Source: a virus (Duplodnaviria > Caudoviricetes). Taken from it: a stretch of 64,000 bases of DNA. Where the stretch lies: positions 1 through 64,000 of the IMG/VR virus record IMGVR_UViG_3300033069_001711; one strand, 5' to 3'. The notes under the pieces were generated by a model that saw nothing but the letters and a program-made list of their open reading frames with translations, was not told the origin of the DNA and ran no database searches. Below, in pieces: positions 5,688 through 52,235 of this stretch. Both the position numbers and the translations under genes were made by a program. Each line of letters begins with the position of its first letter. Within the stretch, counting starts at the first letter, position 1.

Positions 5688-5763
5688 GCGCTTCCAGTGT
5701 AACTATACCCCGCCGGAGTCGACACGACCACGGATGATCGTAGACACCTGTAATTAGTAACAA

Positions 5764-6999
5764 TTAGAAGTCGAGACGAATTCTGAAAGTCAAATCTCTT
5801 TCGGCACTCTTCTGTACCGGTCTAGACAATTTTGCGACAGCTAACAAATTGTCATTGGCATCATACATACCAACGCTGGTGACGTAGGTAAAAGATTGCT
5901 GTGTGTCTTCTTGACCAACGTCAATGACAACAATACGATTAGTGGAATCCGTAAATGTCGGATTTGATGAGTAATTGAACTCATCAGCTTGTGCCCTACA
6001 GAAGATCAACGTACTATTGATGTTCGTCACATTCTGGAATGTCATCGCTGTCTGACTTCCAGATCCCATGCGGCAGGCCGCGATATGGTCTACTATGTTA
6101 TCGATAGAAGCACTAACAACAAAGTCAGGAATAAATTTAGCTTTATTCGCTGTTTCAGTCAACCTTCCTCCTAGAACAGATGTTCCTAAAGAGGTCATCG
6201 AATCGATGGTTCCAGACATAAATTGGCTGGCACTAGTGATCTTTGCAAGATCTAAAACTAACACACCGCGGTCGTAGAACATCAGACCGACTTCTCGTGA
6301 AGTATCAGCACTGTCAACAACATTGCCTACTTGACCACCGAATGACGCTAGTTTGTTTGTTGCTGCGCCAATGTCAGTGTAGATAGCACTACCAGAAGTT
6401 GACGTAAAATTGATGTTTGGTCTATTGTTGTCACCACCCAACCCAATTCCTTGCGTCTGTCCATTCGGTCCAACTGCGGAGGCAGACTGAAAGAATCGCA
6501 TCGCGAATGTTTCACGTTTGATGCTATCCCTTGCAAAGAGACGCTTGAATGCGATAAAAAGAACTGCATCCATTTCGTCGGCAACGTCAGTTGAATCTAG
6601 AGGCGAGGTGAACGTTGCCGTAGAATCACCAAGCAATTGCTGGGCAAATTCACGATAAACATCCATCTTTTCACGCATCATCAGTGACGAACTAGGAAAC
6701 AGTTCTTTACCAGCAGCATCGACTCCAGTTTGACTGGATTGAACAGTCGTTCCTCCTGGGAGCAATCCGAACGTCATATCAAACAGCGCATTAGCGGTTT
6801 GCAACGTGAAGTCCTGATCGTACACTGTTTGAAACAGTGAACTTGTAACGCCCGGGCCGACGCCACCGGTGACGAAAACCTGAAATTTACGACGAGAACT
6901 AGAACCACTGACGTCTTCTTGAAGCACGTCTACGAGCTGATTTAGAAATGATCGTGCGACCTTGATGTCGCTAGGAAGTACTTCTTTGAATGTTGCCAT
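5764..6999 (-). CDS. Probable virion (tail/baseplate) structural protein (411 aa)
   Basis: C-terminal FNYSSNPTF...YVTSVGMYDANDNLLAVAKLSRPVQK...FRIRLDF, resembling the C-terminal half of tail-collar-fibre (DUF3751)-like proteins. Confidence 0.55.
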   Translation of the reverse strand: MATFKEVLPSDIKVARSFLNQLVDVLQEDVSGSSSRRKFQVFVTGGVGPGVTSSLFQTVYDQDFTLQTANALFDMTFGLLPGGTTVQSSQTGVDAAGKELFPSSSLMMREKMDVYREFAQQLLGDSTATFTSPLDSTDVADEMDAVLFIAFKRLFARDSIKRETFAMRFFQSASAVGPNGQTQGIGLGGDNNRPNINFTSTSGSAIYTDIGAATNKLASFGGQVGNVVDSADTSREVGLMFYDRGVLVLDLAKITSASQFMSGTIDSMTSLGTSVLGGRLTETANKAKFIPDFVVSASIDNIVDHIAACRMGSGSQTAMTFQNVTNINSTLIFCRAQADEFNYSSNPTFTDSTNRIVVIDVGQEDTQQSFTYVTSVGMYDANDNLLAVAKLSRPVQKSAERDLTFRIRLDF

Positions 7000-7073
7000 G
7001 ATGTTTGTGTTATTCCTTCACACAGCACATGCATGCTGCATCGATGAACTTTGCGTACGAATTCATATATGAA

Positions 7074-7790
7074 TCACAGATTCTTGTCAATGATGATGCC
7101 GATGGTTTGCACTGCACCTGACTGAACGCCTGTCACCTTCATAAAAGCTTTGATCTTGGTCTTATCAGCGGTAGTGCCATACACTGTAAACAACGCATCG
7201 GTCAATGACTTGACACTAAGCGTAAACTGAACGCTTGAACCACCGAAAGCATTTTCTGCTGGGGAGCGTGTTAGGATGTAAGTCGCACGTTGATTACCGT
7301 CGATGTTTTCAGGCGTATTCTTCAATACCTGCATGAAAAGATTGGGAACTTCGACAATAAACGTCTGATCTCGAAGTTCAACGTCAATCGTTGTTTCATT
7401 CTGAATAGTCTGTTGAACGTTGATATTCGCGGTCTTTTGAGTATTTCTTCCCAACGTAACGAGATTATTGAGACTGTCAACGTTAGCGTCACCACTCAAT
7501 GACATCACAGGTAGACGTAGCAAGTTTGGATTGCTAACACTGATCAGTTTATACTTTTGCGCAAGTGACTGATTGGTTAGAGCCTCAAAAATGGGCGTGT
7601 TCTTCTCGATCTTTTCTGAACCAACAGTACGACCGTACTTGGTAATGATGCCATAGTTGACTTCATCGTCTCCTAAAGCAAATTTGTGAATCGAAAATGA
7701 CCCATCATTACGAGCTAGAAATTGTCTTCCCACGTCAGTGAGTACAGCGTCCAAAATCACATTGTTCGTTGACGAATCTAAAAATCCCAT
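7074..7790 (-). CDS. Probable virion structural protein (238 aa)
   Basis: N-terminal DAVLTDVGRQFLAR...KFALGDDE, resembling the N-terminal half of DUF3751-like proteins. Confidence 0.5.
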   Translation of the reverse strand: MGFLDSSTNNVILDAVLTDVGRQFLARNDGSFSIHKFALGDDEVNYGIITKYGRTVGSEKIEKNTPIFEALTNQSLAQKYKLISVSNPNLLRLPVMSLSGDANVDSLNNLVTLGRNTQKTANINVQQTIQNETTIDVELRDQTFIVEVPNLFMQVLKNTPENIDGNQRATYILTRSPAENAFGGSSVQFTLSVKSLTDALFTVYGTTADKTKIKAFMKVTGVQSGAVQTIGIIIDKNL

Positions 7791-7818
7791 AAGTACTTGA
7801 TTCCTTTATTCTTATTCT

Positions 7819-7944
7819 TTAGTTCGCCAACGCTAACTTGCTTCGACGATACGTGACAATCGTGGCGTCTTCAAGGGATAGGTATGCAGTTGCGTGCGTC
7901 CCAGCCTGGTCATAGGCAAACACCAATTCTTTTTCAGAGATCAT
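7819..7944 (-). CDS. Small hypothetical protein, 41 aa (MISEKELVFAYDQAGTHATAYLSLEDATIVTYRRSKLALAN)
   Basis: Translated by hand; fills the gap between 7790 and 7934 and its start overlaps the end of the upstream gene; below the ORF-track size cutoff. Confidence 0.35.
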   Translation of the reverse strand: MISEKELVFAYDQAGTHATAYLSLEDATIVTYRRSKLALAN

Positions 7945-8344
7945 GAACCGATGCATCTGTTGTCCTCAACCGAACAATCATGTCATTGCCCAATTTGTAA
8001 AGAGGCATATAGAAAAACATCGCTTGATCTTCGGAATCCAAAAAAGAAATCAATTGATCAACAATTGATTCTACGTTATCTTCAAATTTTGCCTCAGTCA
8101 ATTTAACCTTGTAGGTTTCAACTGTGTCACACATCACGTCAACAGCTGATCCGTCAAATGGCTGAAAATGATACACAAATGTAGGCGTTGATACAGCCCG
8201 AAGTTTGATGCAAGAAGGTAATTTTTTCTCTAATCGAGAAAACACCGCTTGGTTCAATTCATTGAGAAACATTTTGTCTTGCGGTGTGTGGTATCGACAA
8301 ACATACGTTTCAAAGTTTTGCCAAACTTGTTGAAATACGTTCAT
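7934..8344 (-). CDS. Hypothetical protein (136 aa)
   Basis: Co-oriented ORF filling the operon gap; no recognised motif. Confidence 0.55.
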   Translation of the reverse strand: MNVFQQVWQNFETYVCRYHTPQDKMFLNELNQAVFSRLEKKLPSCIKLRAVSTPTFVYHFQPFDGSAVDVMCDTVETYKVKLTEAKFEDNVESIVDQLISFLDSEDQAMFFYMPLYKLGNDMIVRLRTTDASVHDL

Positions 8345-8381
8345 GTCTTTATCCTAATACCACATGCCAGATCGGTAAACA

Positions 8382-10304
8382 TCAGCGGCTGGGTTGAGGC
8401 TTGCGTTTCGGACCAAATTGAACAGTTGGATACCCAATGGTTCTCTGTTGTGCGCTCAATCGATCGTCAATGTTGATCGTCAGATCATGACCTTTCAAGT
8501 TGTCTAAGTTGATGAATTGCAACTTGTAACTACCTCCGCTCTGATTTGTTGACAGGGTGCGCTGAATCCGACCGTTGTCGTCATAGAGAAAGTAGTGCTC
8601 TGGGTTAAAGAACAATTTGAGTCGCTTCGTATGAGGTCCTGAGACCCGAATCGTATTCTCGAAAATATCTCCCTCCAGATACAAATTCGGGTATGGCTTC
8701 GGTGCGCCAGCGTGACTGATCAATTCTTTTTGTAATTTATTCTTGAATCGATCAAACCAAACTCGATACTGAGCAGAGTAATTGCTTGTTTGAGCATGCG
8801 CATCAACTGCACAGATCGTATAGATCATGCCTTTGTCTTTTGCAAAGTTGACGTCTTTCTTAAATTCATCATCAATCCACCAAGTTGCAGGAGACGTCAA
8901 TCTTTCAACTAGCGCAGTGTCAGCAATTTCTGGATTTGGAAATGCCACTACTGAATCATCGAAGTTGTAGACTTTTTGCAACTCAAAACAATGATCAATG
9001 TTTTCTCGTCTGAAAACTTGAAATTGTTTGACATCTCTTTCGCTAGTGACAGGAAATGCCCAAGTGACCATCAATTTGTCGGTTTCATAATTCCAAACAA
9101 AGTTGACATCTGCTGGAGGAGGCGGGTTCCTCAGTTTCAATGTTGAAACATAAATCTTGTTTGACGGCTTGCTACTGATCAAAACCTTGATCATCGCCAA
9201 CCCACCTGAATCTTCATCGATGGCAGGCATGGTTAGCAAAGCTACTGTTCTTACAGTGTAACAATAATTTGCATTAAACTTGACTCGAAAATCAGCAGTT
9301 GATGTCACGTAAGGACTGTCAATGATGATTGGCGAATGAACCTTGGTTGAACCATCGGACAAAATTTCAAATTTGTCAATGATGTAACCAACAATTTGTG
9401 GAGCGTATTTTTCAGCATGAGGCGATGTATCATGCCGTTTGACGTCAATGAAAGGAACAAACGTCTTATAGTCAGATTCAGAAACAGCAGTTGTAAAACG
9501 TTGATTAACAGCTTGTTTTACTTGCTTTGCGTAACCATGCATATGCATGATGTCAGCAGCATTAGTAGATGTAGGATCATCAATAGTCTTATTGATCAAT
9601 TCATCAAGTAACTTGACGTTGATCTGTGTATTGATTCCAACAGCGGCAAGTCGCTGAAAATACGACCGCAATGCCCCTCGTTTAACTGCGCCAGTCTCTT
9701 GTTTCTTAGCGTTAAACGTTCCACCATATGAATTTTGAGGATCAGTAAGCGCCTGTGTCAACCAATGTGGTGAGATGCTCTTAGGTAGCATCGGAATCAA
9801 TCGTTGTGCCAACTTGTAAGGACTGTTGTTCTGATCAACATCTTCAGACAACGACAATTGAGAAATTGATCCTGACACCAGTTGATGAACTTTTTTGTCA
9901 ACGTCACCATCATGAAAGTGAACTGACACGTAGTTGTTAGAGGCAAAGTCATCTTCATTTACGACTTTTCCAATGTTACGTAAAATCAAAGAACCATCTT
10001 GCATGCCGGTCGTTCGAAACGCATTGTCTCGCATCAACTTATCACTGACTTGATTTCCAACATCAGCTAATTTTGGAGCGATAAATGACAGTTGAACGAA
10101 CCTAGGGGCACGAGTGATGGAATACTGAATGAAACTAGAATCAATTTCAGATCCTTGTCGAGCTAACACATTTAGTGGCACTCCGCCAGTTTCATTAACA
10201 CTTTCGTCTGGCACAAAGAAGTTGTAGAAAAATGTCCCTTGAAGTTCCTTAGACTCCGGCACATCGATAACATAGATTTCTCTAGATGGCTGCGAGATGC
10301 TCAT
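8382..10304 (-). CDS. Probable virion protein with FN3/Ig-like C-terminal region (640 aa)
   Basis: PPPPADVNFVWNY..KLMVTWAFP...FQVFRR...YTICAVDAH FN3-like pattern; structural-gene context. Confidence 0.5.
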   Translation of the reverse strand: MSISQPSREIYVIDVPESKELQGTFFYNFFVPDESVNETGGVPLNVLARQGSEIDSSFIQYSITRAPRFVQLSFIAPKLADVGNQVSDKLMRDNAFRTTGMQDGSLILRNIGKVVNEDDFASNNYVSVHFHDGDVDKKVHQLVSGSISQLSLSEDVDQNNSPYKLAQRLIPMLPKSISPHWLTQALTDPQNSYGGTFNAKKQETGAVKRGALRSYFQRLAAVGINTQINVKLLDELINKTIDDPTSTNAADIMHMHGYAKQVKQAVNQRFTTAVSESDYKTFVPFIDVKRHDTSPHAEKYAPQIVGYIIDKFEILSDGSTKVHSPIIIDSPYVTSTADFRVKFNANYCYTVRTVALLTMPAIDEDSGGLAMIKVLISSKPSNKIYVSTLKLRNPPPPADVNFVWNYETDKLMVTWAFPVTSERDVKQFQVFRRENIDHCFELQKVYNFDDSVVAFPNPEIADTALVERLTSPATWWIDDEFKKDVNFAKDKGMIYTICAVDAHAQTSNYSAQYRVWFDRFKNKLQKELISHAGAPKPYPNLYLEGDIFENTIRVSGPHTKRLKLFFNPEHYFLYDDNGRIQRTLSTNQSGGSYKLQFINLDNLKGHDLTINIDDRLSAQQRTIGYPTVQFGPKRKPQPSR

Positions 10305-13300
10305 TTAGACCTCTTCCTGGCCATATGTTTCGATCGTAATGAAGTACTTGTCAGAAATTAGATCGCCTTGATTTTTGTCTCGATCACGGTATCTAAAATT
10401 GTTGATGTTAGACTCTGGCTGACCTGAATTAACAGACGTTTGCTTTTGTCCTGACGACATCATTGAAGCTCTTAATTTGGATGAACTTGAGAGATCAGAC
10501 GGAACTATGTCACCATGATTGATCAACAATTCTAAAGCCTGACGTCCATAAGGTGTTGAAATAGTCTTCTCAACATCGAGTTCAAAATTATGAGGATCAA
10601 CCACAACATTAAAAACACGATCAAATGCTTTAGGAGTCATGACTCTACGTTCTAGAGCAAGAACTGATGATGCCGTTGTCAAAGTCTTTGCCATTCCAGC
10701 TGCGGGACGAAATCCATCGTAAGCTAACATCGTATTACGCGGACTCAAAAGAGATAACTTAGCGCCTAAACCTTGTGCAGGCGTTTGAAATTCAATCGAT
10801 CGAGTTACCGCGGCAGCAGATGACATTGATTTAAAAACAGATGCAGCATTGACAGACCCGGCAACACCGGCTGCATTACTCAATGAAACTTTGGATATAT
10901 TTGCAACACCAGGTCTCTTTGAGGCTGAAGATGTCGATGAAAATAAGATTCCTCCAGAAGGTGGATTAACGCTAGGCTTAAATGTGCCGGCGTGATTTGA
11001 ACTCTGATCAACGATCAGTTGCATTGAATGTTCAGCTAATGTCTTGACAAAGTCATTTTCAATCGTGTCAGGAACTTCTGACATGTCATAGTTGTACTCT
11101 GCAACGTTGATGCCAGTCATCAATTTGATGTAAATTTCTAACAATTGACTGGTAACGTGATTTTTCAAAATTTCAGACTTTTCAGTTGAAGATAGAAAAT
11201 CATATGAAGATTCATTGAACGCTTGGCGCGCGCCTCGAACTCCAGCTTTAGACGTCAAGTTAGTAGAAGCGTATTCGATGCCAGCTGAAGAATATGTTCC
11301 ACCAGACGTAGTGGTTGGATCATTTCCAAAATTATGAGTCGGAATTGCATAAACAACATCATTCAAAGAAGGTCTTGCAGGTAAACTTAGCCACAAAGCA
11401 GTGTTAGGCCTGACTGGGAATCGTGACAACTCAAACAAGAATTGTTGAGGTTTATACACGATATCTGAATTCTGAAGATCAACTTTGTACACGCTAATTC
11501 GAACAATGTCAGCTTGTTTATTGGCAAACGCAGAAGACGTTTGTGACTTTATGTCAACCTTTTGTTTCAAGCGTTGACAAAATCCCAAAGGAATTCCTAC
11601 TGTCAAAATTCGATTGTTAGAACCTCGTTTTGAAGCAAATTGTGGCGCGCCGAAGAGGCCATAAAGTGCTTCTTTGGCATTCGGAGGTACGACCGATTCA
11701 TCTAAAACAACAATGGCATCAGCGTTTGCAGAACCTTCATGATACGATCCATTATCGTCTGAAGACGAAGAAGATGTCTTACTCGCGGCCTCTAAGCTTT
11801 CGATAGTTGAAGCTAACATCATGATCTGCTGTTCGCTGATCAACATTCGAATCATGTCTTTGTTATTTTGTAATACATCAGCGATTTGCTTCAATTTGGT
11901 CTTTGAATCACTGCTATTGAGGTAGCTACTGACGCCCCTAAGAGAACCAGAAAGATTACGCAAAGAATTAATGACCGTCAATAACAATTGTTGTGATGTT
12001 TTTGCCTCAGATGACACCCGTTGTAAAAGCTGTTTGTATGAAGTGTTGTGATTAGTCGACATTGCATTAATCGCAAACACATCCATTCCTTTTGACAACG
12101 ATGATACACTAGAGTGAGAACCTACAAGTGTCTGATTGCTGTATTTTGCAATCATTGCAATCACAAAATCAAACGCTAACATCATAACAACTGTGTCTAG
12201 ATACCCACCGTAACGAGTGAATTCATCTTGAATTGCAGTCGTATTCAACCTAAATTGAGCAATGACAGAACTCATGAATTGTTCGACAATTGTCGACATT
12301 TCAGTGCCGGTTTTCAAAGCATGCTTGATGTTATCGCGAGTGGCAGCAGCTGCATTCATATTTGAAGCTGCTTTCTGCACAACTAGTTGTAAGGTCGCGC
12401 GATTGTCAGAAGCAGATGTCGCTGCCGCGGCGACAATCTTTTCAATGAGATCATCAACTAAAGGAGTATTATCAGCTTTTTCACGTGAAGCAAAGAATGG
12501 CACATTCTTGTTATAGTTACGCGAAATCTTGCTCAAAGTGTACAAAAACAACATAGTCTTGATGTTATTGTCAGTTCTGGCTTTCGTGTAGATAGCTGAC
12601 AATTTATCGTCTGTTGAGACACGTTGAGGCGCGCCAGTTCTGATGTTGATCAGCTTGCTTGCTACTTCGTTAATCGTATCGTATGACGTTGTTAAAAATC
12701 CACTATTTTGTTTTCGACTAGCACCATTGAGTTCAGCATTTGGCATTGAAGGCGTTGAAAACAAATTAAGACCATCGATGATGATGTTCAGTTGTTTTAG
12801 CTGATCATCCATCTGCACCACCAGTTGGTCTAACGTTGTCGTGTTAAATTTGTCTCCTTCGGTATTCAATACTCGATCGATGAAAAATTCGCCACCCGGC
12901 GTCAATGTTCCTGTGTCACCTTCAACATACTTTGTTTCAAATGTTAGAATGCCTAGGCCTTCTTCTTGATTGAGACCAATGCTATTTTGCGCTATTGATG
13001 CAAGTGATTTATCTTGAGTTGCTGGAAAATCAGTAATGTTGTTGCCAAAATTTCCAAAGACGGCGTCCAACATAGTTGTATTGCCGTTTAACGTAACATT
13101 GTAGCCGTAAAAATTCTGTAATGATGTGACAACGGCAGTTTTTGAAAGGCCTACAGAATAACGAAATTCTTGAGTCAACGTATGTGCCAATGCTGCCAAA
13201 CGTGCTTCTTCATTTTTGAAGAAAACGTTCTGATACATGCTAACAAAAACAGGACTCAACAAATTGAGCGTCTTTGAAGAATTTGCAACTTCAAGATTGA

Positions 13301-14465
13301 TCAATTCGGTCAAAGATGGTAACTGTGGTAAATTCTTTGACAAAGAAAAATAGTTGGTCGCTGGAGGCAAAAGAACTGTCGGATTATTGTCACCGCGTTG
13401 TCGAATAGGATCGATATCGATCAATTTCAATGAGTGATTTTTGAGCATGCTCTTCAACTCTGAGAGCAATTGCAACCATATCTTTGTAGAAGAAAAAATG
13501 TGTTTGACAGCATCAACGCTGTAACCTACATCAGTCAAAGAATCAACGCAATCAAAAGTTGATCGCATACCATCACTAATAGATGAGAGATTGATCCTAT
13601 TGAGAGTTGACAGACGTGCAGAACTGTTGTTCTGAGAATAACGTTGTTCGACGTACTGTGCTACTTCTTGAGGATTGACAACGTAAAGACCATGACGAAG
13701 GTCTAGTTGCTTTTTTTGTGCATCAAGAATTCGAACCAGGTTCAAAAGAAAAGAAGAATGACCTTTGAGTTGTGTCAGTGACTGCATAAAATCATTAGAA
13801 CGATTAACGAACTGTTGATTTAAACCTGGATATCGTCGTCTGATAGAGCTTACAGATGATTGCATGTTCCATGATGTCAAATTGCGCATCTGAATTTGTG
13901 AATCGCAATACCGACCAGCGTCAGTCATGTAAGGATTCATAGCATAATCAGTAATAGCGCTATCGCTTTGAACAGAAACAAAATTTGATTCGTTATCGAA
14001 CAAAGGAACAACGTTGGTCAACATCACAATTTCAGGTCGCTCGTGCGCAATTCCTGTCAACTGCTCAAAAGGTTGAAATTTAGTCGTAGTTGTCGCAAAT
14101 GTTTGATTGATACGAGGATCAAAAACTTGACCGGCATCAAGTGACAAGGCATGCGTCGGCATCAATCTTACATTGCCGTTGTACATCGGCATGATAAGCG
14201 AAACTTTATTGGACGAAATTGAGTCAGAGAGTCTTCCCAAAGAAGGTCTAGAAACTTTGAGTGTTGACACACTAGACAAATCATTTGATTTCAACAGCAC
14301 CGGAGAAGAGAGCATTGCCTGTGAAGCCGGTAAAGGAGTCTTCACATTAACTGCAGAAGTCTGTTGTTGAATCAAAAATTGATTGCTGCTTGCTGTGGCA
14401 GGTTGGACAGAAACGTTCGCAAGCTTTGCAAAGCTGTCATTGTTTGTTCGTAGTGTATTAATCAT
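10305..14465 (-). CDS. Large Ser/Thr/Asn-rich hypothetical, probably virion protein (1386 aa)
   Basis: Longest ORF in the window; abuts both neighbours; no enzyme motif. Confidence 0.55.
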   Translation of the reverse strand: MINTLRTNNDSFAKLANVSVQPATASSNQFLIQQQTSAVNVKTPLPASQAMLSSPVLLKSNDLSSVSTLKVSRPSLGRLSDSISSNKVSLIMPMYNGNVRLMPTHALSLDAGQVFDPRINQTFATTTTKFQPFEQLTGIAHERPEIVMLTNVVPLFDNESNFVSVQSDSAITDYAMNPYMTDAGRYCDSQIQMRNLTSWNMQSSVSSIRRRYPGLNQQFVNRSNDFMQSLTQLKGHSSFLLNLVRILDAQKKQLDLRHGLYVVNPQEVAQYVEQRYSQNNSSARLSTLNRINLSSISDGMRSTFDCVDSLTDVGYSVDAVKHIFSSTKIWLQLLSELKSMLKNHSLKLIDIDPIRQRGDNNPTVLLPPATNYFSLSKNLPQLPSLTELINLEVANSSKTLNLLSPVFVSMYQNVFFKNEEARLAALAHTLTQEFRYSVGLSKTAVVTSLQNFYGYNVTLNGNTTMLDAVFGNFGNNITDFPATQDKSLASIAQNSIGLNQEEGLGILTFETKYVEGDTGTLTPGGEFFIDRVLNTEGDKFNTTTLDQLVVQMDDQLKQLNIIIDGLNLFSTPSMPNAELNGASRKQNSGFLTTSYDTINEVASKLINIRTGAPQRVSTDDKLSAIYTKARTDNNIKTMLFLYTLSKISRNYNKNVPFFASREKADNTPLVDDLIEKIVAAAATSASDNRATLQLVVQKAASNMNAAAATRDNIKHALKTGTEMSTIVEQFMSSVIAQFRLNTTAIQDEFTRYGGYLDTVVMMLAFDFVIAMIAKYSNQTLVGSHSSVSSLSKGMDVFAINAMSTNHNTSYKQLLQRVSSEAKTSQQLLLTVINSLRNLSGSLRGVSSYLNSSDSKTKLKQIADVLQNNKDMIRMLISEQQIMMLASTIESLEAASKTSSSSSDDNGSYHEGSANADAIVVLDESVVPPNAKEALYGLFGAPQFASKRGSNNRILTVGIPLGFCQRLKQKVDIKSQTSSAFANKQADIVRISVYKVDLQNSDIVYKPQQFLFELSRFPVRPNTALWLSLPARPSLNDVVYAIPTHNFGNDPTTTSGGTYSSAGIEYASTNLTSKAGVRGARQAFNESSYDFLSSTEKSEILKNHVTSQLLEIYIKLMTGINVAEYNYDMSEVPDTIENDFVKTLAEHSMQLIVDQSSNHAGTFKPSVNPPSGGILFSSTSSASKRPGVANISKVSLSNAAGVAGSVNAASVFKSMSSAAAVTRSIEFQTPAQGLGAKLSLLSPRNTMLAYDGFRPAAGMAKTLTTASSVLALERRVMTPKAFDRVFNVVVDPHNFELDVEKTISTPYGRQALELLINHGDIVPSDLSSSSKLRASMMSSGQKQTSVNSGQPESNINNFRYRDRDKNQGDLISDKYFITIETYGQEEV

Positions 14466-16936
14466 TTTGACTCTACGATAAGTGTATTCGTCATCGCCGC
14501 GGGACCCTCTTTGTAATCATTCATGATCGGAATGATGACATATTTCAATGCCCCGGCATCACGATTTTGGACTTTGTGTAAATATTGACAACTTCCATAC
14601 TCAAACTCTCCATGAGTTTTGCCAAGAAGCGTTCGCATGCCATGAATTTCTTTGAAAATCAAAAAATGATCAATCCGGTGAACGTTACCAAGAATTTTCC
14701 AAGACACAAGGTTCAAATATCGATCAAAAATAGCAGCTTCTGGATCGATGATCTTTGCGGCATCTTCATCAAATGAAACCTCGATATTGACCGGTGAACC
14801 TATGATGCCATATGCCATCGGATCTTTGCCATAACGTTTCTTTGCACCTGCAGAAGAAACCAGCACGCCTCTGTCCAATGTCAAGGGATGCAAAAATTTT
14901 GCAGGTGACCATCGATACGGTTTTTTGGTGACAGAGTCAATGGATTCTTTGACAAATGAATCAAACATCGTTTCCGGAGCACGCAACAATGGGTAAATTT
15001 CATAACGATATCGATGACCGTATTGCAATTGGCCAATAGATTGATTTTTTCTAAGTACAGAATCATTAAAATCAGCTTGTGTCAATACACCGAATGAATC
15101 GACATGACCCGTATTTAGATCAATACGTTTGACACTATGCGCAATGAGATTTTGAAGTTGATCGCGTTGCGTCAATATGTCATCTGTAAAGTACGACAAT
15201 AAACCTTGTCGCTCAAGCATGCGTTTGACCGCGTCGATGTCTGTATCAATAGTTCGAGTGTTGATATTGAATGATACGTTAGGAACATTCGAATCATGGT
15301 CAACTGTTAGATCTGTGACTCGAACATCGACAGTTCCAGGGGAAGGTTTGATAAACTCAACAATTGTCTTGCCGTATACTTCAACATTTCCATCGACGTA
15401 AATAAGTCGAACACTGTATCCGTATGTCACACCGGGCGTCACGCCACTGTCAATTGTAGAGACTAAGTCTAGACGTCTAACGTCATCACTAATGAATCCA
15501 ATTTCTTCATTGATGACCGTGTACTCTTTTTCAAAAGAAGTCAAGTTGAGTCGTAAAAATTGAACAGCGACGACCTTGGGAGGAATGCGACGAATTTCAA
15601 GTTTGACACCGTTATCAACTTGATCAGCTACTAATGATACCGCTCTAGGAGGAGTGTATCTGGCTGGCTTTAAAGCCACATTAGAATATTCGAATCCCAT
15701 CATTGATTGGAGACCCCTAGAGATGACTCGATAAATAATGGGTGATGATCTAGGTTGATCAACTTGGACCAATAGACTTTGATCCGTAGACTTTAAGTCA
15801 TAAGTTCCAATCAAAGTGTAATCTTCAATTTCAGGCGAAGCAATCCAGATGGATTTTTTGTAGACCAGGACTTCTGTCGCGCCAGGGTCAACTTGCTTGA
15901 TTTCCAAATTCACTCGAGTTGAAATATCAGAACCAGTTGCTTTGACACGAGGGGGAACTTTAGGGGTATAGTAAATTCTGACATGTTGTGATATGTCAAG
16001 AACTTTAGTAACCGTATCGATCGGCAAAGAACTCTCTGAGTCGATGAGATCAAATTTGACAAAAACCTGAGTAACATCGCCGCCGCTTTGCGTCAATTTT
16101 CGTCGTGGAATAGTGATTTTTACCGGAACAGCTACATAATCACTCGACAAATTTTGCAATACCGTGACGAGCTCGCCGTCAACTACTTGATTGGTCAGTG
16201 TAGGAGGTAAGCTGTAAATCGGAGGAAACAAATAGTGATTGAGTAATCTAGACGCTGGGTCTGTATTCAATTCCACACCTCCCATGATGGTTGTCAAGCC
16301 ACCTTTTGTCTCTTGTTCTGATGACGTTCGAGATGACAAATTGATCACGTGTGAAGGATCTAATCCTTGTCTATTGATCATGTCTAACATCAACTGTTGA
16401 GGGTCTTCATTGAAAGAAGCAGTCAATGCATGATTGACATCTGGAACTGCCATGGAATTAGCGATTCGATGTAAAATTGGTTGGACGTCATTGGCGTCTT
16501 TCGTGCTGCCAGCAGTCGCCAACATCAATCCAGGACGATTCAATGATCCAATTTGACTGATCGGCATGCGCGAACTCAGTTGAGCCACGATGTCATTACT
16601 AACATAAGCAGTGATATCACTCTCTCGCTGTGCCAACACATACTGACTTTGCGTAATGGTAGCCATCTTAGCGTCTTGAACCGCTGATCGAATGTTATTG
16701 ACCAGAGACGCAGAATTTGACTTAACCTGAGTGTTTGTCAATAAGGATTTTTTGACAATTTGTCGTGATTCAACACTGACCAAGACTCGCGTTGCCTTAC
16801 GTGAGATGGCTTCTTTTTGTGAAACAACATAGATGAACTCAAATTCAAGATCATCATTCTCTAGAACTGTTTTGAGATGAGCAAAATTCTCATCAACCTG
16901 CAACAATTGACCCGCTTTTTGAAACCTAAAATACAT
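14462..16936 (-). CDS. Probable virion protein with tandem FN3/Ig-like domains (824 aa)
   Basis: TPKVPPRV...VLVYKK...YRVISR and TPPRAVSL...GVTYGYSVRL beta-sandwich patterns. Confidence 0.5.
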   Translation of the reverse strand: MYFRFQKAGQLLQVDENFAHLKTVLENDDLEFEFIYVVSQKEAISRKATRVLVSVESRQIVKKSLLTNTQVKSNSASLVNNIRSAVQDAKMATITQSQYVLAQRESDITAYVSNDIVAQLSSRMPISQIGSLNRPGLMLATAGSTKDANDVQPILHRIANSMAVPDVNHALTASFNEDPQQLMLDMINRQGLDPSHVINLSSRTSSEQETKGGLTTIMGGVELNTDPASRLLNHYLFPPIYSLPPTLTNQVVDGELVTVLQNLSSDYVAVPVKITIPRRKLTQSGGDVTQVFVKFDLIDSESSLPIDTVTKVLDISQHVRIYYTPKVPPRVKATGSDISTRVNLEIKQVDPGATEVLVYKKSIWIASPEIEDYTLIGTYDLKSTDQSLLVQVDQPRSSPIIYRVISRGLQSMMGFEYSNVALKPARYTPPRAVSLVADQVDNGVKLEIRRIPPKVVAVQFLRLNLTSFEKEYTVINEEIGFISDDVRRLDLVSTIDSGVTPGVTYGYSVRLIYVDGNVEVYGKTIVEFIKPSPGTVDVRVTDLTVDHDSNVPNVSFNINTRTIDTDIDAVKRMLERQGLLSYFTDDILTQRDQLQNLIAHSVKRIDLNTGHVDSFGVLTQADFNDSVLRKNQSIGQLQYGHRYRYEIYPLLRAPETMFDSFVKESIDSVTKKPYRWSPAKFLHPLTLDRGVLVSSAGAKKRYGKDPMAYGIIGSPVNIEVSFDEDAAKIIDPEAAIFDRYLNLVSWKILGNVHRIDHFLIFKEIHGMRTLLGKTHGEFEYGSCQYLHKVQNRDAGALKYVIIPIMNDYKEGPAAMTNTLIVESK

Positions 16937-44110: not shown

Positions 44111-44799
44111 AAATTCTATTTGCACTGTATCGAGAATGGGCTGAAAAAGTATTTTTTGCAGTTGCGCCGATGATGCAACAACGCAATCACTTTTACAAAA
44201 TTGTCAAAACGCCTGAAGCATTGTTAGACGAAGTCAATGGTGAATGGGATGTTGTCATCTTGTTAGGATGGAGTTGGAAAGTTCCTGCCGACGTTGTTAA
44301 CAATCGTTTGGTCATTGGAATGCATCCATCTGATTTGCCTCATTACGCCGGCGGATCTCCCATTCAAAATCAAATTCTAGATGGTGTTGAACAAACGTAT
44401 GCAACACTGTTCAAGCTGGATGAAAAATTTGACGAAGGTCAGATCATTGACAAAGAAATGATCGATCTTCGCGGTCACCTTCATGACGTGTTACGCAATA
44501 TTACCGTGGCATCATCAACACTTGTCATACGATTTATCACAAATTTTCCGAATAACACATACGCAAAACAAACTGGCGAAGGGATCAAAGTCAAGCGCTT
44601 GAAACCTGAACACAGCAAATTACCCAACCCAATGCGTCCAGTTCCTAGCCAACCTTATCCCGTGGCTATTGAAGCAATGACTTGTAAGGAATTGTGGAAT
44701 CACATCAGGTGTCGTGAAGACCCATATCCTAATGCGTATTTTGAAGACGCGACTGGCAAATTGATCATCAAACAAGTTGAATTTGAACCCAAGACATGA
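44107..44799 (+). CDS. Formyltransferase (sugar-nucleotide N-formyltransferase / Fmt-like)
   Basis: GMHPSDLPHYAGGSPIQNQI; LDEKFDEGQII. Confidence 0.8.
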   Translation: MKILFALYREWAEKVFFAVAPMMQQRNHFYKIVKTPEALLDEVNGEWDVVILLGWSWKVPADVVNNRLVIGMHPSDLPHYAGGSPIQNQILDGVEQTYATLFKLDEKFDEGQIIDKEMIDLRGHLHDVLRNITVASSTLVIRFITNFPNNTYAKQTGEGIKVKRLKPEHSKLPNPMRPVPSQPYPVAIEAMTCKELWNHIRCREDPYPNAYFEDATGKLIIKQVEFEPKT

Positions 44800-45719
44800 A
44801 GAACATTGTTCAACTAGTTGACACTATTGATTACGTCAGAAGCAATTGTTTTCAACACCAACTAGAGATAGCTTTAGACCAAAAATGTAATCTGATTCAG
44901 GTCGAACTGAAAGACATTTTGTATGCGCCATCGAGTCCTGCTGACGGGTTCATCAGTTGTTTGAAACAGCGGACGTTAATGCGAAATTCTGAAGCTGTTG
45001 GAAAATGGCTCAAAGGGGCTTCATTGGTCGTTTACGATCAAGATCCTTGGCAATCATTCATGGATGACTCGCCTTTCAAAGGCGCATATCATCACATCAT
45101 GCAACACGTCAATGTCAAATCTTTTGCCTTGACGACGCAGTGGTGGGTTGATTATCTCGCTAGTGTTGGCATGCCATCAACCTTTGTCAAGATGGGTGTG
45201 TTGTCTCGCTATTGTGTGCAACGACCTGAATACCTGGAACGTAAGAACACTGTTGGATTCGTAGGGTCTGTTCACCCTCGTAGAAAAATGTTGTTAGATG
45301 CAATTGAGTCATCTGGCATCAAGACATCAGTTCTTGCAAGTAACTCATTAGCGTATCCTGAGTTTCTTGAAAAGCTTTCAGAGCTACGAATCTTCGTGCA
45401 CAATGAAGACATGTTGATTTATGTTGATGGCAAGGAATTGAATTTCAACACTGGCATGTGGGTCAAAGACGTTGAAGCTGCATCACAGGGATGCTTCAGT
45501 ATTCGAAGTAAGGCACAAGGATCTGAAACATACCTTGAAGGCTTGAATTCTGTAATTCTATACGATAACATTGAGCAAGTGCCTGACATCATTCGAGAGA
45601 TTGAGTCAATGAATGCAACAAAACGTCAATCAATCATTGATCATGCAGTGGCACAAATTACAGAAGAAGATGCATGGTCAGGAACGGCGCGTAAATTGAT
45701 TGAACTTGCTAGCCTTTGA
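44796..45719 (+). CDS. GT-B-like glycosyltransferase (CgeB-like)
   Basis: VGFVGSVHPRR; RIFVHNE; EAASQGCF. Confidence 0.55.
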   Translation: MKNIVQLVDTIDYVRSNCFQHQLEIALDQKCNLIQVELKDILYAPSSPADGFISCLKQRTLMRNSEAVGKWLKGASLVVYDQDPWQSFMDDSPFKGAYHHIMQHVNVKSFALTTQWWVDYLASVGMPSTFVKMGVLSRYCVQRPEYLERKNTVGFVGSVHPRRKMLLDAIESSGIKTSVLASNSLAYPEFLEKLSELRIFVHNEDMLIYVDGKELNFNTGMWVKDVEAASQGCFSIRSKAQGSETYLEGLNSVILYDNIEQVPDIIREIESMNATKRQSIIDHAVAQITEEDAWSGTARKLIELASL

Positions 45720-45752: not shown

Positions 45753-46451
45753 ATGACTTCAAAATATATTGACAGGCTTCGAAATGACATTGTACGAGGC
45801 GAGGCCAAACAGTTGTTCGATCAGCTGGTTATGATTGTGGCTAACATGACGCCGGCAAATTGCTATGCAGTTGAATTACCCAAACAACCCGTCAAAGAAC
45901 TTGACAATGCAATCATCACACGAACACAAGAACTGTTTTTAGAGATCGGAATTACTCTCAATCGATCTATCGGTCTAGACAATGTCGTCTTCACACTCAG
46001 TGAAGCTAGAGAGATCCCCACTAAAATTTTGCACCCGCTCTTTTGGAGCAGAGCACCAGGCAAATTTGTCAATAAGCTTACCGGTAAAGAAGTTAAATTG
46101 ACTGATGAGAAAATCACCGGCCCAATATTCACTGGTACGGTTCGAGAATGGTATGAAACGCTTATTGAAACGCTAATTGACGGCGCTAATTCATTCATGA
46201 AAGAAATCGGTGAATTTCCGACTAGCGTCAGTGTTTCAGATGATCTTTTGTGTATCATAGAATGTTCAGTGCTGTACAAACCATCCTTTACAGTCAATGG
46301 TGACATTCCTCCTTCTTTCGCAGGAACACTTCCTAAGTTCAAAGTCTTTAAAGACGACACGTTGTTATCCAACGTTGCCAAATTGTCTGGCGTTAAGGAT
46401 GGCGTCAAATACACGTTAGATGTCAATGTTCTTGACATGAACATCATCTGA
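45753..46451 (+). CDS. Truncated T4 gp23-type major capsid protein paralogue (232 aa)
   Basis: FWSRAPGKFVNK, FTGTVREWYETLIET, SVLYKP, KVFKD and C-terminal VLDMNII resemble segments I recall from jumbo-myovirus gp23-like capsid proteins; not computed. Confidence 0.65.
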   Translation: MTSKYIDRLRNDIVRGEAKQLFDQLVMIVANMTPANCYAVELPKQPVKELDNAIITRTQELFLEIGITLNRSIGLDNVVFTLSEAREIPTKILHPLFWSRAPGKFVNKLTGKEVKLTDEKITGPIFTGTVREWYETLIETLIDGANSFMKEIGEFPTSVSVSDDLLCIIECSVLYKPSFTVNGDIPPSFAGTLPKFKVFKDDTLLSNVAKLSGVKDGVKYTLDVNVLDMNII

Positions 46452-46460
46452 AGGAACATC

Positions 46461-47441
46461 ATGAAATCAATTGCAGTGATCGGACAAGGTTTTGTGGGTG
46501 GTTCGCTCACTACTGTCTTTGCAGAACGTGGGTTTGACGTCTATACGTACGACAAGGCTGGCAAACAAGCACCAGGAGCGAAACATTCACACGAAGTGAC
46601 TGTTCATTCTGAAGGACTCACGTCATATGATCTCTTACCTGCTTCATCTGTTGAAGATTTAGTTGCCTCATGTGAAGCACTCAAGACATTTTCTGGTGTT
46701 TACTTCGTTTGTCTTCCAACTCCAATGTTTGAAGACGGCGAGGCTGATTTGTCGATTGTAGAGGGCGTTCTAGAACAATTAAGCAAATTACCCGGTAACC
46801 GAATTGCAGTTGTCAAATCAACTGTCCCGCCCGGTACGACAGAACGTTGGAATAAGACGTTTGATAACACCGGACTTCGAGTTGTCTTCAATCCAGAATT
46901 TCTGACAGAAGCAAATGCTCTGGATGATATGCGCAATCAGAATCGCATCATTTTGGGAGGTCCTCGACCATGGATCAACACTGTCAAGCTAGTTTTTCAA
47001 TCTGCATTTCCAAAGGTTCCGCTTGTCAAAACGTCTTCAACAACTGCGGAAATGGTAAAGTACACCATTAATTGTTTTCTCGCAACCAAAGTCTCTTTCG
47101 CTAATGAAATGGCACAGATTTGTGAAGCACTTGACAACAAGGGTCTAAACATTGACTATGATAAAGTTGTTGAATACGCCAAGCTCGACACTCGACTAGG
47201 AAACAGTCATTGGGCCGTGCCAGGACCAGTGCCAGCTCATGATGGTCGTTACGTTCGCGGATTTGGCGGTCATTGTTTTCCAAAAGACTTGAATGCTCTA
47301 ACTTTCATTGCTGAATCTTTAGGCATTGATCCAAAAGTTTTGAAAGGTGTTTGGGCTAAAAATCTAGAAGTTCGTAGTCCTGATGATCGAGATTGGGAAC
47401 ACATGAAAGATCGTGCTGTTAGCAAGAGAAAATTAAATTGA
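46461..47441 (+). CDS. UDP-glucose/GDP-mannose 6-dehydrogenase family
   Basis: GQGFVG; VCLPTP; KSTVPPGTT; NPEFLTE; AEMVKY..N; GFGGHCFPKD. Confidence 0.9.
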   Translation: MKSIAVIGQGFVGGSLTTVFAERGFDVYTYDKAGKQAPGAKHSHEVTVHSEGLTSYDLLPASSVEDLVASCEALKTFSGVYFVCLPTPMFEDGEADLSIVEGVLEQLSKLPGNRIAVVKSTVPPGTTERWNKTFDNTGLRVVFNPEFLTEANALDDMRNQNRIILGGPRPWINTVKLVFQSAFPKVPLVKTSSTTAEMVKYTINCFLATKVSFANEMAQICEALDNKGLNIDYDKVVEYAKLDTRLGNSHWAVPGPVPAHDGRYVRGFGGHCFPKDLNALTFIAESLGIDPKVLKGVWAKNLEVRSPDDRDWEHMKDRAVSKRKLN

Positions 47442-52016: not shown

Positions 52017-52235
52017 ATGGAACAAGACGATTACACAATTGAACTCATCAATAAATGGACTGCCACCGGTCACCTGATCAATGTCAAAGAACAAGAACAG
52101 ACTTTAGTTGCTCAAAGACTTGAAGCCGCTTATCGTCGAACATTGGGACAAAAAGGTGATTCTGGGGCTTTCGAAAGAGAGTTGCAATCGTTACGCCGCG
52201 AGGGTTTCTTTGGCAAATCAGTGAACTCGAGGTAA
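52017..52235 (+). CDS. Hypothetical protein (72 aa)
   Basis: Co-oriented ORF. Confidence 0.45.
   Translation: MEQDDYTIELINKWTATGHLINVKEQEQTLVAQRLEAAYRRTLGQKGDSGAFERELQSLRREGFFGKSVNSR

What the first reader, a model, noticed from the sequence alone, without database searches (positions are those of the whole stretch)
45753..46451. Capsid-derived mini-protein embedded in the glycosylation operon
Seen: a 232-aa ORF between a GT and the sugar dehydrogenase, with FWSRAPGKFVNK..G, GP.FTGTVREWYETL.ET, V.VS.D...I.E.SVLYKP, GTL..F.VFKD and terminal VLDMNII. Recalled: the same ordered segments occur in gp23-like major capsid proteins of related jumbo myoviruses, where a GYVYAPY..PRKG..TRY segment lies before the C-terminus. 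That segment and the N-terminal half are missing here, leaving roughly the A-domain. Inference: (i) an adaptor or mimic that targets GTs to capsomers, (ii) a vertex or decoration subunit, or (iii) a decoy for capsid-sensing defences. It is the best sequence-level link between the glycan island and the capsid.
Basis: partly seen in the sequence, partly recalled or inferred. Interest (0 to 1): 0.8.

Follow-up and report, generated by a model that had tools for sequence, protein, structure and literature searches.

The report
Free-standing capsid A-domain mini-protein
This jumbo-phage gene encodes only the central "axial" domain of the phage-type head protein plus a small unrelated domain; it belongs to a large, fast-evolving, undescribed family of capsid mimics, and its position among sugar genes is conserved in close relatives but is neither universal nor required by those genes.

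Summary
Observation confirmed. Residues ~94-232 are homologous to the A-domain of ~635-aa gp23-type capsid proteins (MCPs) (BLASTP 2e-32; hhalign 1.4e-53). The AlphaFold model (pLDDT 89.6) matches HK97-fold capsid A-domains (Z about 10). The P-domain hairpin is cleanly excised and the MCP's last strand is kept. Residues 1-93 are an unrelated alpha/beta domain.

The gene is real. The family has 551 clusters at 50% identity, mostly 120-200-aa A-domains. It evolves much faster than the MCP but keeps one MCP-identical face.

The glycan link is only partly supported. All six 232-aa-class relatives with enough flanking sequence lie in sugar/GT operons. Two of six short members lie clearly outside, and two more are ambiguous. 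Related genomes, one of them complete (369 kb), keep the same GT and dehydrogenase without the gene.

I read it as an accessory soluble mimic of unassembled capsid protein. The partner is unknown: a host capsid sensor, a GT or the capsid itself.

This scan met the same family before on other DNA (e1-3642768), along with other capsid-fragment mini-genes. I found no paper describing it. The closest analogue is the archaeal 'A-domain encapsulins'.

The parts
45753..46451 (+). Whole gene, 232 aa: N-terminal alpha/beta domain plus capsid-derived A-domain
   Evidence: ORF list. There are 161 homologues in the near length class and 551 clusters in the exhaustive profile search. AlphaFold model: pLDDT 89.6, pTM 0.80.
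45753..46028 (+). N-terminal domain, residues 1-92 (helix 2-30, strand 37-43, helix 50-64, hairpin 67-84); not detectably capsid-derived; present only in the ~230-250-aa class
   Evidence: hhalign aligns only residues 94-213 to the MCP. Folded alone it gives pLDDT 68 and a best structural Z of 7.0 to generic winged-helix/R3H folds. The Atlas finds ~90-aa free-standing phage proteins of similar shape, TM 0.6-0.74.
46029..46448 (+). HK97-fold A-domain, residues 93-232, homologous to residues ~443-582 plus 625-633 of ~635-aa gp23-type MCPs (about T4 gp23 285-448 plus the C-terminal strand)
   Evidence: BLASTP 2e-32. hhalign E 1.4e-53. MCP-to-T4 gp23 mapping. VIA-align: 7x30 Z 10.6, 6uzc Z 10.1, 1yue Z 10.0.
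46041..46085 (+). Conserved block 1, FWSRAPGKFVNKLTG (residues 97-111): end of the first strand and start of the long loop; identical to the MCP in at least 80-90% of family members
   Evidence: Column statistics.
46086..46118 (+). Variable Ser/Thr-enriched loop (residues 112-122), variable in both MCPs and minis
   Evidence: S/T fraction is 0.32 in MCPs and 0.23 in minis, against 0.16 and 0.14 for the whole domain.
46119..46181 (+). Conserved block 2, GPIFTGTVREWYETLIETLID (residues 123-143): end of the loop and first half of A-domain helix alpha5
   Evidence: According to PMC8346489, the two main A-domain helices form the subunit interfaces within a capsomer.
46413..46418 (+). Approximate junction (residues ~221/222) where the MCP's ~43-residue P-domain hairpin (TGYVYAPY...PRKG..TRYG...) has been excised; the MCP's last strand (V.VLDMNII) follows
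   Evidence: Alignment of minis against MCPs.
44796..45719 (+). Upstream neighbour, 307 aa, weakly CgeB-like GT-B glycosyltransferase; same strand, 33-nt gap
   Evidence: PF13524 E 1.2e-4, below the curated cut-off. A second neighbour type, BLAST-unrelated, in other loci hits the same family. It is 42-46% identical to its counterparts in L001 and L003.
46461..47441 (+). Downstream neighbour, 326-aa UDP-sugar dehydrogenase lacking the C-terminal UDP-binding domain; 9-nt gap
   Evidence: PF03721 and PF00984 only. It is 65-82% identical in relatives. It is present without any mini gene in G002, G003, G005, G011 and G012.

Best explanation
The gene encodes an accessory, soluble mimic of one face of the phage's own type of major capsid protein (MCP).

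Shown:
- It is a free-standing copy of the MCP A-domain.
- The P-domain hairpin is excised, and the N-arm, E-loop, insertion domain and P-domain are gone, so it cannot tile into a capsid lattice.
- An unrelated ~90-residue domain is attached in front.
- The family is large and under selection, yet patchy among related phages.
- It evolves several-fold faster than the MCP. The exceptions are the first strand, the two ends of the long loop and helix alpha5, which stay identical to the nearly invariant MCP.

Inferred:
- The retained face is pinned to an invariant outside partner rather than free to co-drift. The protein therefore works by occupying something that normally recognises unassembled MCP.
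- My pick for that partner is a host factor that senses or binds capsid protein (a decoy or antagonist of capsid-sensing immunity), or a neighbouring MCP subunit of a competing phage.
- It is probably not an integral part of the sugar pathway. The glycan-operon position in this lineage would then reflect an old insertion into an accessory gene block.
For: - Domain anatomy.
- Fold: model pLDDT 89.6; the top 50 structural matches are almost all HK97 capsid proteins or encapsulins, with Z up to 10.6.
- Real gene: 551 clusters at 50% identity, 400 of them at E<=1e-10. About 115 of the best 150 hits are 120-200-aa proteins aligned end to end.
- One origin and fast evolution: all minis separate from the MCPs on one branch (support 99/98). 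Mini branch lengths are 0.3-2.0 against 0.01-0.16 for MCPs. MCPs collapse to about 12 clusters at 50% identity, minis to more than 100.
- Pinned face: minis match the MCP consensus at 0.59-0.63 of positions in the loop and helix alpha5, but only 0.31 in the sheet strands, which are 0.91 conserved in MCPs.
- Accessory status: 14 MCP-bearing contigs of the clade have no mini. These include a complete 369-kb genome with the MCP subgroup nearest the minis.
- Not needed by its neighbours: in G012 the GT-like gene is followed directly by the short dehydrogenase; in G011 other sugar genes fill the slot.
- Varied neighbourhoods: other family members sit among macro-domain/methylase genes or nucleotide-metabolism genes.
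- A second capsid-derived fragment gene (72 aa, similar to the MCP N-terminal propeptide; hhalign probability 81%, E 1.2e-5) lies 5.5 kb downstream, outside the sugar genes.
- Hosts do sense MCPs directly: Avs7/Dsr1 (bioRxiv 10.64898/2026.01.04.697583). CapRel and Lit/Gol I cite from my own knowledge.
Against: - There is no direct evidence of any binding partner.
- No phage-encoded capsid decoy has been described, and a fragment might trigger a sensor rather than block it.
- I could not check on coordinates whether the conserved face is an interface or an exposed surface.
- All six 232-aa-class members with enough flanking sequence sit in glycan operons. Two of them overlap the stop codon of the GT-like gene.
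- The mini and the GT-like gene are the two fastest-evolving genes of the island. This fits a GT partnership as well as it fits an arms race.
- No genome holding both the mini and its own MCP was recovered.
Confidence: 0.4

Rival explanations
1. Glycosylation accessory. The A-domain docks on, or imitates, the MCP, and the N-terminal domain docks on the adjacent CgeB-like glycosyltransferase. Sugars made by the island are thereby directed to the capsid protein, or built on the mini-protein itself as an acceptor or carrier.
For: - It is co-directional and tightly spaced with sugar genes in the window and in L001, L003, L004/L009, L005, L006, L007, L008 and L117.
- Stop and start codons overlap with the upstream GT-like gene in L004 and L005.
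- Both upstream neighbour types hit PF13524 (CgeB-like) weakly.
- The mini and the GT-like gene share the lowest conservation in the island, 41-46% against 62-84% for the other genes.
- The loop between the conserved motifs is Ser/Thr-enriched in MCPs and minis.
- Phage capsid glycosylation has a precedent in mycobacteriophages (Freeman et al. 2023, as cited in PMC12619734).
Against: - Related genomes keep the same GT-like gene and short dehydrogenase with no mini.
- P0118 and P0109 lie outside glycan islands. P0113 sits between a Band_7 gene and thyX, with dTDP-sugar genes 2.3 kb downstream. P0287, which has the N-domain, has no GT within 3 kb upstream on its short contig.
- No known glycosylation sequon is present.
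- No evidence exists that these capsids are glycosylated.
- Much of the conserved position may be one inherited insertion, because the whole region is collinear among relatives.
Confidence: 0.25
2. Capsid-associated structural accessory: a decoration, vertex-associated or capping subunit, or an assembly helper that caps the free A-domain interface of MCP before or during head assembly.
For: - It retains the helix that forms intra-capsomer contacts in HK97-fold shells.
- There is a precedent for MCP paralogues with structural roles (T4 gp24, 1yue, Z 10.0).
- Fast evolution is typical of exposed decoration proteins.
- A tandem double-module form exists (P0253).
Against: - It is absent from a complete genome and many large contigs with the same, nearly invariant MCP, so it is not needed to build the head.
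- In an assembled capsomer both sides of every A-domain are already occupied, so there is no obvious docking site.
- It is encoded among metabolic and accessory genes, not with head genes.
- One member carries a Tat-like signal peptide (P0317).
Confidence: 0.2
3. Enzyme-associated A-domain scaffold, analogous to archaeal Family 4 'A-domain encapsulins'. The mini oligomerises and binds the adjacent NAD-dependent sugar dehydrogenase, which lacks its C-terminal domain, to stabilise or organise it.
For: - Free-standing HK97 A-domains in two-gene operons with enzymes, including GAPDH, are known, and a GAPDH complex has been reported (PMC8346489).
- The structure resembles 2PK8: Z 7.7, 85 of 94 residues aligned.
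- The mini is directly next to the short dehydrogenase in 7 of 9 island loci.
Against: - The same short dehydrogenase (55-61% identical in three contigs) occurs without any mini in G002, G003, G005, G011 and G012.
- The dehydrogenase is slow-evolving while the mini is fast-evolving.
- L005 keeps the mini but has no dehydrogenase next to it.
- There is no sequence membership in PF08967.
Confidence: 0.05
4. Non-functional remnant of a partial capsid-gene duplication.
For: It is a fragment of a longer gene and diverges quickly.
Against: - Intact ORFs occur in hundreds of clusters down to 33% identity, with 12 invariant and more than 15 near-invariant positions.
- The domain boundaries are precise and the internal excision is clean.
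- The fold is confidently predicted.
- The locus is identical in at least three independent studies.
Confidence: 0.03

Closest known systems
gp23-type major capsid protein (Pfam PF07068; T4 gp23, PDB 6uzc/5vf3/7vrt), specifically the ~635-aa MCPs of an uncultured jumbo-myovirus clade
   Same: The A-domain is homologous: 44-54% identity, with the same strand/loop/helix order, the same WSRAPGKFVNK.TG and GTVREWYETL.ET motifs, and the same C-terminal VLDMNII strand.
   Different: It lacks the propeptide, N-arm, E-loop, insertion domain, spine helix and P-domain sheet, including the excised hairpin. It has an unrelated N-terminal domain, evolves far faster, and is accessory.
T4 gp24 vertex protein (PDB 1yue), a full-length paralogue of gp23
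   Same: Both are capsid-protein paralogues encoded in addition to the MCP. Structural match Z 10.0.
   Different: gp24 keeps the whole HK97 fold and is built into the vertices. This protein is a single domain that cannot occupy a lattice position.
Family 4 'A-domain encapsulins' (PF08967/DUF1884; PF0899, PDB 2PK8; Andreas & Giessen 2021, PMC8346489)
   Same: Both are free-standing HK97 A-domains of ~100-150 residues, encoded next to enzymes, with unknown function. Z 7.7 with 85 residues aligned.
   Different: They are an independent lineage with no sequence relation (no PF08967 hit). They are cellular (thermophilic archaea, a few Bacteroidota) and lie downstream of GAPDH, DeoC, OsmC or hydrogenase. 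This family is phage-encoded and recently derived from the phage's own MCP type.
Virus-encoded capsid glycosylation (mycobacteriophage virion glycosylation, Freeman et al. 2023, cited in PMC12619734; chlorovirus PBCV-1 Vp54, PMC7826918)
   Same: A virus-encoded set of GTs and sugar-nucleotide enzymes with no export machinery, a plausible way to modify virion proteins.
   Different: Those systems have no capsid-derived accessory protein. No evidence here shows that the capsid is glycosylated.
Capsid-sensing bacterial immunity (Avs7/Dsr1, bioRxiv 10.64898/2026.01.04.697583; CapRel and Lit/Gol from my own knowledge)
   Same: These systems recognise unassembled MCP or MCP fragments, which is the kind of partner that a soluble MCP-face mimic could occupy.
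   Different: No phage-encoded MCP decoy is described there. The link is inference only.

Membership tests
gp23-type major capsid protein (PF07068) | Significant sequence homology to the family | tested here: met
   BLASTP 2e-32 to P0125 and P0157. hhalign probability 100%, E 1.4e-53, over mini residues 94-213. Relatives P0003 and P0113 carry weak PF07068 hits.
gp23-type major capsid protein (PF07068) | Reaches the Pfam gathering score | tested here: not met
   The window ORF has no Pfam hit at E<=0.1.
gp23-type major capsid protein (PF07068) | Complete HK97 fold (N-arm, E-loop, P-domain with spine helix, A-domain) able to tile a shell | tested here: not met
   Only the A-domain is present, and the P-domain hairpin is deleted. 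Length is 232 aa against ~635 aa. Structural alignments cover model residues 64/88-232 only.
Family 4 A-domain encapsulins (PF08967/DUF1884) | Free-standing HK97 A-domain fold | tested here: met
   2pk8_A: Z 7.7, rmsd 2.9, 85 residues aligned of 94.
Family 4 A-domain encapsulins (PF08967/DUF1884) | Sequence membership in PF08967 | tested here: not met
   No Pfam hit at E<=0.1. The nearest sequence relatives are gp23-type MCPs.
Family 4 A-domain encapsulins (PF08967/DUF1884) | Conserved two-gene operon with a partner enzyme | tested here: inconclusive
   The mini is adjacent to a short UDP-sugar dehydrogenase in 7 of 9 island loci. The enzyme occurs without the mini in five related contigs.
Component of a capsid-directed glycosylation system | Co-transcription or operon membership with GTs and sugar-nucleotide enzymes | tested here: met
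   Same strand, with 33-nt and 9-nt gaps in the window. ATGA overlaps in L004 and L005. This is operon architecture only; no RNA data were available.
Component of a capsid-directed glycosylation system | Co-occurrence with the system across genomes (present when the system is present, absent otherwise) | tested here: not met
   G011 and G012 have the GT-like gene and the dehydrogenase but no mini. P0118 and P0109 have the mini outside any island.
Component of a capsid-directed glycosylation system | The capsid or the mini-protein is actually glycosylated | not testable with these tools
   This needs virion or recombinant glycoproteomics.
Virion decoration or vertex protein | Presence in purified virions | not testable with these tools
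   No cultured member: no near relative among 50,697 phage records.

The most novel reading that the evidence does not exclude
The family is a phage-encoded decoy or antagonist. It displays the invariant A-domain face of the capsid protein to blunt host immune sensors that detect unassembled capsid protein (Avs7-, Dsr1- or CapRel-type). It would be one of several capsid-fragment mini-genes that jumbo T4-like phages use this way. That would be the first structural-protein decoy described in phages.
Probability: 0.25. Interest if true: 0.85.

Novelty: new variant of a known kind. Interest (0 to 1): 0.6.

Why it matters
Capsid proteins are usually treated as single-purpose building blocks. Here, a large clade of uncultured jumbo phages has cut one domain out of its capsid protein and kept it for a long time as a separate, rapidly evolving gene that preserves one capsid-identical surface.

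Whatever the partner turns out to be (a host sensor, a glycosyltransferase or the assembling head), the family gives a compact ~140-residue handle on how unassembled capsid protein is recognised inside the cell. If it antagonises capsid-sensing immunity, it would be a new class of counter-defence. If it targets sugars to the head, it would be the first substrate-derived adaptor in virion glycosylation.

The family has no Pfam or PHROG model, and I found no paper describing it.

Tried and rejected
- Pfam and PHROGs gave no hit for the ORF.
- The phage collection holds no near relative. The only tblastn hit was a spurious fibritin match at E 0.03.
- A PDB sequence search did not find gp23. The best hit, a plant C2 domain at E 0.016, is noise.
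- Foldseek against the PDB stayed above E 1e-3, although gp23 and gp24 ranked at the top. VIA-align gave the clear result.
- The Atlas feature search returned nothing usable.
- The N-domain folded alone gave only generic winged-helix/R3H matches, Z <= 7.0.
- Whole-genome search was not possible because no genome is held for the window. Metagenome loci could not be used as handles.
- I never obtained a genome holding both a mini and its own MCP. The L009 contig (29% complete) has no MCP, and 14 MCP-bearing contigs have no mini.
- P0120 (DnaJ plus Gp23) looked like an informative fusion. It is most likely an assembly chimera with a frameshifted tail on a 1.3-kb contig. No enzyme fusion was found among longer hits.
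- The T4 late-promoter motif TATAAATA occurs once, as expected by chance. Sigma-70-like and terminator-like sites are not above the shuffled controls. So there is no information on expression timing.
- No RNA holder is listed among the sequencing runs.
- Laid contigs show no variation inside the ORF, so a short-range dN/dS could not be computed.
- The nearest cultured phages by helicase (Tunturi_5, phage G) lack this MCP type. They say nothing about the window's own MCP.

Full report
**1.
The ORF lies at 45753-46451 on the + strand and encodes 232 aa. It sits 33 nt after a 307-aa gene with a weak CgeB-like glycosyltransferase signature (PF13524, E 1.2e-4). It lies 9 nt before a 326-aa UDP-sugar dehydrogenase that has the NAD-binding and central domains but no C-terminal UDP-binding domain. 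Neither Pfam nor PHROGs recognises the ORF. No record among 50,697 phage genomes is close to it.

**2. It is capsid-derived, and precisely so.**
- A search of 5.8 billion proteins returned 161 hits in the near length class. Many carry PF07068 (Gp23).
- The longer class returned 1,532 hits, nearly all 600-670-aa PF07068 proteins.
- BLASTP aligns ORF residues 52-217 with residues 411-583 of 633-641-aa MCPs (2e-32, 44% identity).
- Those MCP residues correspond to about 285-448 of T4 gp23.
- Profile against profile, only residues 94-213 align, to MCP 443-572 (probability 100%, E 1.4e-53). The first ~93 residues are therefore not detectably capsid-derived.
- The alignment shows a clean ~43-residue gap where MCPs have the TGYVYAPY...PRKG..TRYG hairpin. 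After the gap, the MCP's last strand (V.VLDMNII) is retained.
- So the protein is the A-domain with the P-domain excursion removed.

**3. The fold agrees.**
The AlphaFold model built on a 51-sequence alignment is confident (pLDDT 89.6, pTM 0.80). An exhaustive structural comparison puts HK97-fold capsid proteins first:
- jumbo phage S6 MCP, Z 10.6, model residues 88-232
- T4 gp23, Z 10.1
- T4 gp24, Z 10.0

Dozens of other capsids and encapsulins follow. Foldseek against predicted viral structures likewise gives gp23-type MCPs and vertex proteins, plus a few small uncharacterised phage proteins. The N-terminal domain folded alone is only moderately confident. It has no informative match: best Z 7.0, generic winged-helix/R3H shapes. 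The Atlas relates it to ~90-aa free-standing phage proteins of unknown function.

**4. It is a working gene in a large, fast-evolving family.**
- An exhaustive profile search of 1.84 billion cluster representatives (50% identity) found 551 proteins at E<=1e-3 and 400 at E<=1e-10.
- Of the best 150, about 115 are 120-200-aa proteins that align end to end with the A-domain part. About 17 are 228-245-aa proteins with the N-domain. Only about 12 are full MCPs.
- On a tree of the shared 147 columns, all minis separate from the MCPs on one branch (99/98 support). Mini branch lengths are 0.3-2.0 against 0.01-0.16 for MCPs.
- The long and short forms are intermixed, so the N-domain was gained or lost more than once.
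- The drift is uneven. Minis match the MCP consensus at 59-63% of positions in the long loop and helix alpha5, with WSR.PGKFVNK.TG and G..F.GTVREWYETL.ET..D nearly fixed.
- They match at only 31% of positions in the sheet strands, which are 91% conserved among MCPs.
- The middle of the loop (residues 112-122) is variable in both groups and about twice as Ser/Thr-rich as the rest of the domain.
- According to Andreas & Giessen (PMC8346489), the two main A-domain helices form the subunit interfaces within a capsomer.

**5. Which phage.**
- The window holds no full MCP, and no whole genome is held for it.
- Its helicase is at most 32% identical to any cultured phage; Tunturi_5 and phage G are nearest. 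Those two lack this MCP type.
- The helicase is 44-47% identical to helicases on IMG/VR contigs that do carry the ~635-aa MCP. The window's phage therefore belongs to that uncultured clade.
- The MCP subgroup closest to the minis (P0123, P0131, P0168, P0208, P0221; 'NKLTG...L.SSLSI' loop) comes from 113-370-kb contigs.
- The locus occurs almost unchanged in wastewater and river metagenomes from at least three studies.
- In two of those runs, separate short contigs at similar depth match the 44 nt that encode FTGTVREWYETLIET. They continue into MCP-type sequence (matched to MCP fragments). This may be the phage's own MCP, but that is unproven.

**6. The glycan link is real for this subfamily, but not universal and not obligatory.**

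For the link:
- Orthologues at 33-45% identity in five other lineages lie inside sugar-nucleotide/GT operons (P0003/L001, P0002/L003, P0010/L004 and L009, P0012/L005, P0006/L006). This holds even though the island content differs: PseB/DegT/GNAT type, or methyltransferase/2OG-oxygenase type.
- Three short members lie in sugar-nucleotide/GT islands too: P0089/L007, P0014/L008 and P0026/L117.
- The upstream neighbour is usually one of two BLAST-unrelated ~300-330-aa proteins. Both hit PF13524 weakly. In L004 and L005 its stop codon overlaps the mini's start.
- Between the window and L001 or L003, the mini (41-45%) and this GT-like gene (42-46%) are the least conserved genes. The sugar enzymes are 62-84% identical.

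Against an essential link:
- P0118 sits among small ORFs, a macro-domain gene and a DNA methylase.
- P0113 sits between a Band_7 gene and thyX, with dTDP-sugar genes 2.3 kb away.
- P0109 is next to a GIY-YIG gene.
- The most divergent N-domain-bearing member, P0287, has no GT within 3 kb upstream on its short contig.
- Five related contigs have the short dehydrogenase without any mini.
- In G012 the GT-like gene (40% identical to the window's) is followed directly by the dehydrogenase. In G011, a complete 369-kb genome with terminal repeats and the nearest MCP subgroup, a full-length dehydrogenase and a GT2-like gene fill the slot.
- In all, 14 MCP-bearing contigs of the clade lack a mini.
- The gene is therefore accessory. 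The head, the GT-like gene and the dehydrogenase all exist without it.

**7. A second capsid fragment.**
A conserved 72-aa ORF at 52017-52235 has 44%-identical counterparts in L001 and L003. It resembles residues 22-57 of the MCP, the N-terminal propeptide region (hhalign probability 81%, E 1.2e-5; BLASTP alone gives E 0.055). It lies outside the sugar genes. This fits a broader habit of these phages of keeping capsid-protein pieces as separate genes.

Earlier notes of this scan describe the following on other genomes:
- the same A-domain family next to a thymidylate synthase gene of a ~328-kb phage (e1-3642768), which matches the P0113 context that I found independently
- several other MCP-fragment mini-genes, one of them inside a sugar-transferase operon (e1-5377248)

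These notes are leads. I did not re-test them.

**8. Mechanism.**

Shown:
- a soluble single-domain copy of the MCP A-domain that cannot tile a lattice
- a conserved MCP-identical face on a fast-drifting body
- an accessory distribution
- operon membership with sugar genes in this lineage

Inferred: the face stays pinned to the nearly invariant MCP rather than co-drifting, so the protein probably engages something that also recognises MCP.

| Reading | Probability |
|---|---|
| Accessory mimic or competitor for an MCP-recognising partner outside the sugar pathway (host capsid sensor, or a rival phage's assembling MCP) | 0.40 |
| Glycosylation adaptor or acceptor | 0.25 |
| Capsid-associated accessory or assembly cap | 0.20 |
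| Enzyme scaffold like the archaeal A-domain encapsulins | 0.05 |
| Relic | 0.03 |

The patchy distribution, the speed of change and the varied accessory neighbourhoods are what one expects of counter-defence genes. Hosts are known to sense MCPs directly (Avs7/Dsr1). No decoy of this kind has been described, however, and none of this was tested.

**9. Known or new.**
I found no paper describing a phage-encoded free-standing gp23 A-domain. The closest described thing is the Family 4 'A-domain encapsulin' group (PF08967, 2PK8). It shares the architecture and the unknown function, but it is an unrelated cellular lineage. I classify the finding as a new variant of a known kind. It is interesting mainly as a family. 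The specific idea that it ties the glycan island to the capsid is weakened.

Noticed in passing
window 52017-52235 (+); L001 18733-18948; L003 18770-18985: A conserved 72-aa ORF between a tRNA and a PD-(D/E)XK nuclease gene resembles the N-terminal propeptide region (residues 22-57) of the ~635-aa MCP. hhalign gives probability 81%, E 1.2e-5; BLASTP alone gives E 0.055. It is a second possible capsid-fragment gene in the same phage.
   Followed up: partly
window 46461-47441 (+) and homologues in L001, L003, L004, L006-L009, L109-L111, L203, L204: A UDP-glucose/GDP-mannose dehydrogenase homologue of 287-335 aa consistently lacks the C-terminal UDP-binding domain (PF03720). It is well conserved (55-82% identity) across the clade. 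How it binds its nucleotide sugar is unclear. Some genomes also carry a full-length paralogue (L004, L117, G011).
   Followed up: partly
L088 4771-6669 and 6763-8652: One IMG/VR contig carries two tandem full-length MCP genes (632 and 629 aa) of this type. This may be a gp23/gp24-like hexon/penton pair, or a recent duplication.
   Followed up: no
P0253, P0317, P0294, P0257 (hits): Family variants. P0253 is a tandem double A-domain (432 aa). P0317 begins with a Tat-like RRSFF signal peptide. P0294, P0257 and P0113 carry CxxC...CxxC zinc-ribbon-like insertions or extensions.
   Followed up: partly
window 46128-46171, runs X2 and X7: Separate short contigs at similar depth to the phage match the 44 nt that encode FTGTVREWYETLIET (5 mismatches). 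They continue into MCP-type sequence (LANSLAIGPN before, IIDVGNTIHR after). This may be the phage's own MCP gene. The DNA-level similarity of this stretch is high.
   Followed up: partly
window 44796-45719 versus L004 9015-10004 and L007 6997-7995: Two ~300-330-aa protein types with no BLAST similarity to each other occupy the position upstream of the mini in different lineages. Both give sub-threshold hits to PF13524 (CgeB-like GT) in their C-terminal halves. They are probably divergent GT-B enzymes with different acceptor domains.
   Followed up: partly
window 45863-46510 (-): A 215-aa antisense ORF fully overlaps the gene. All homologues support the + strand frame, so this is a shadow ORF.
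   Followed up: yes
window 3168-16936 (-): Five large ORFs (411-1386 aa) have no PHROG match at all. They could be structural or fibre proteins of this uncultured lineage.
   Followed up: no
window 45479 and 45494: The only two differences from the window seen in contigs of other studies lie in the GT-like gene (T>C and C>T). None lies in the mini gene.
   Followed up: no
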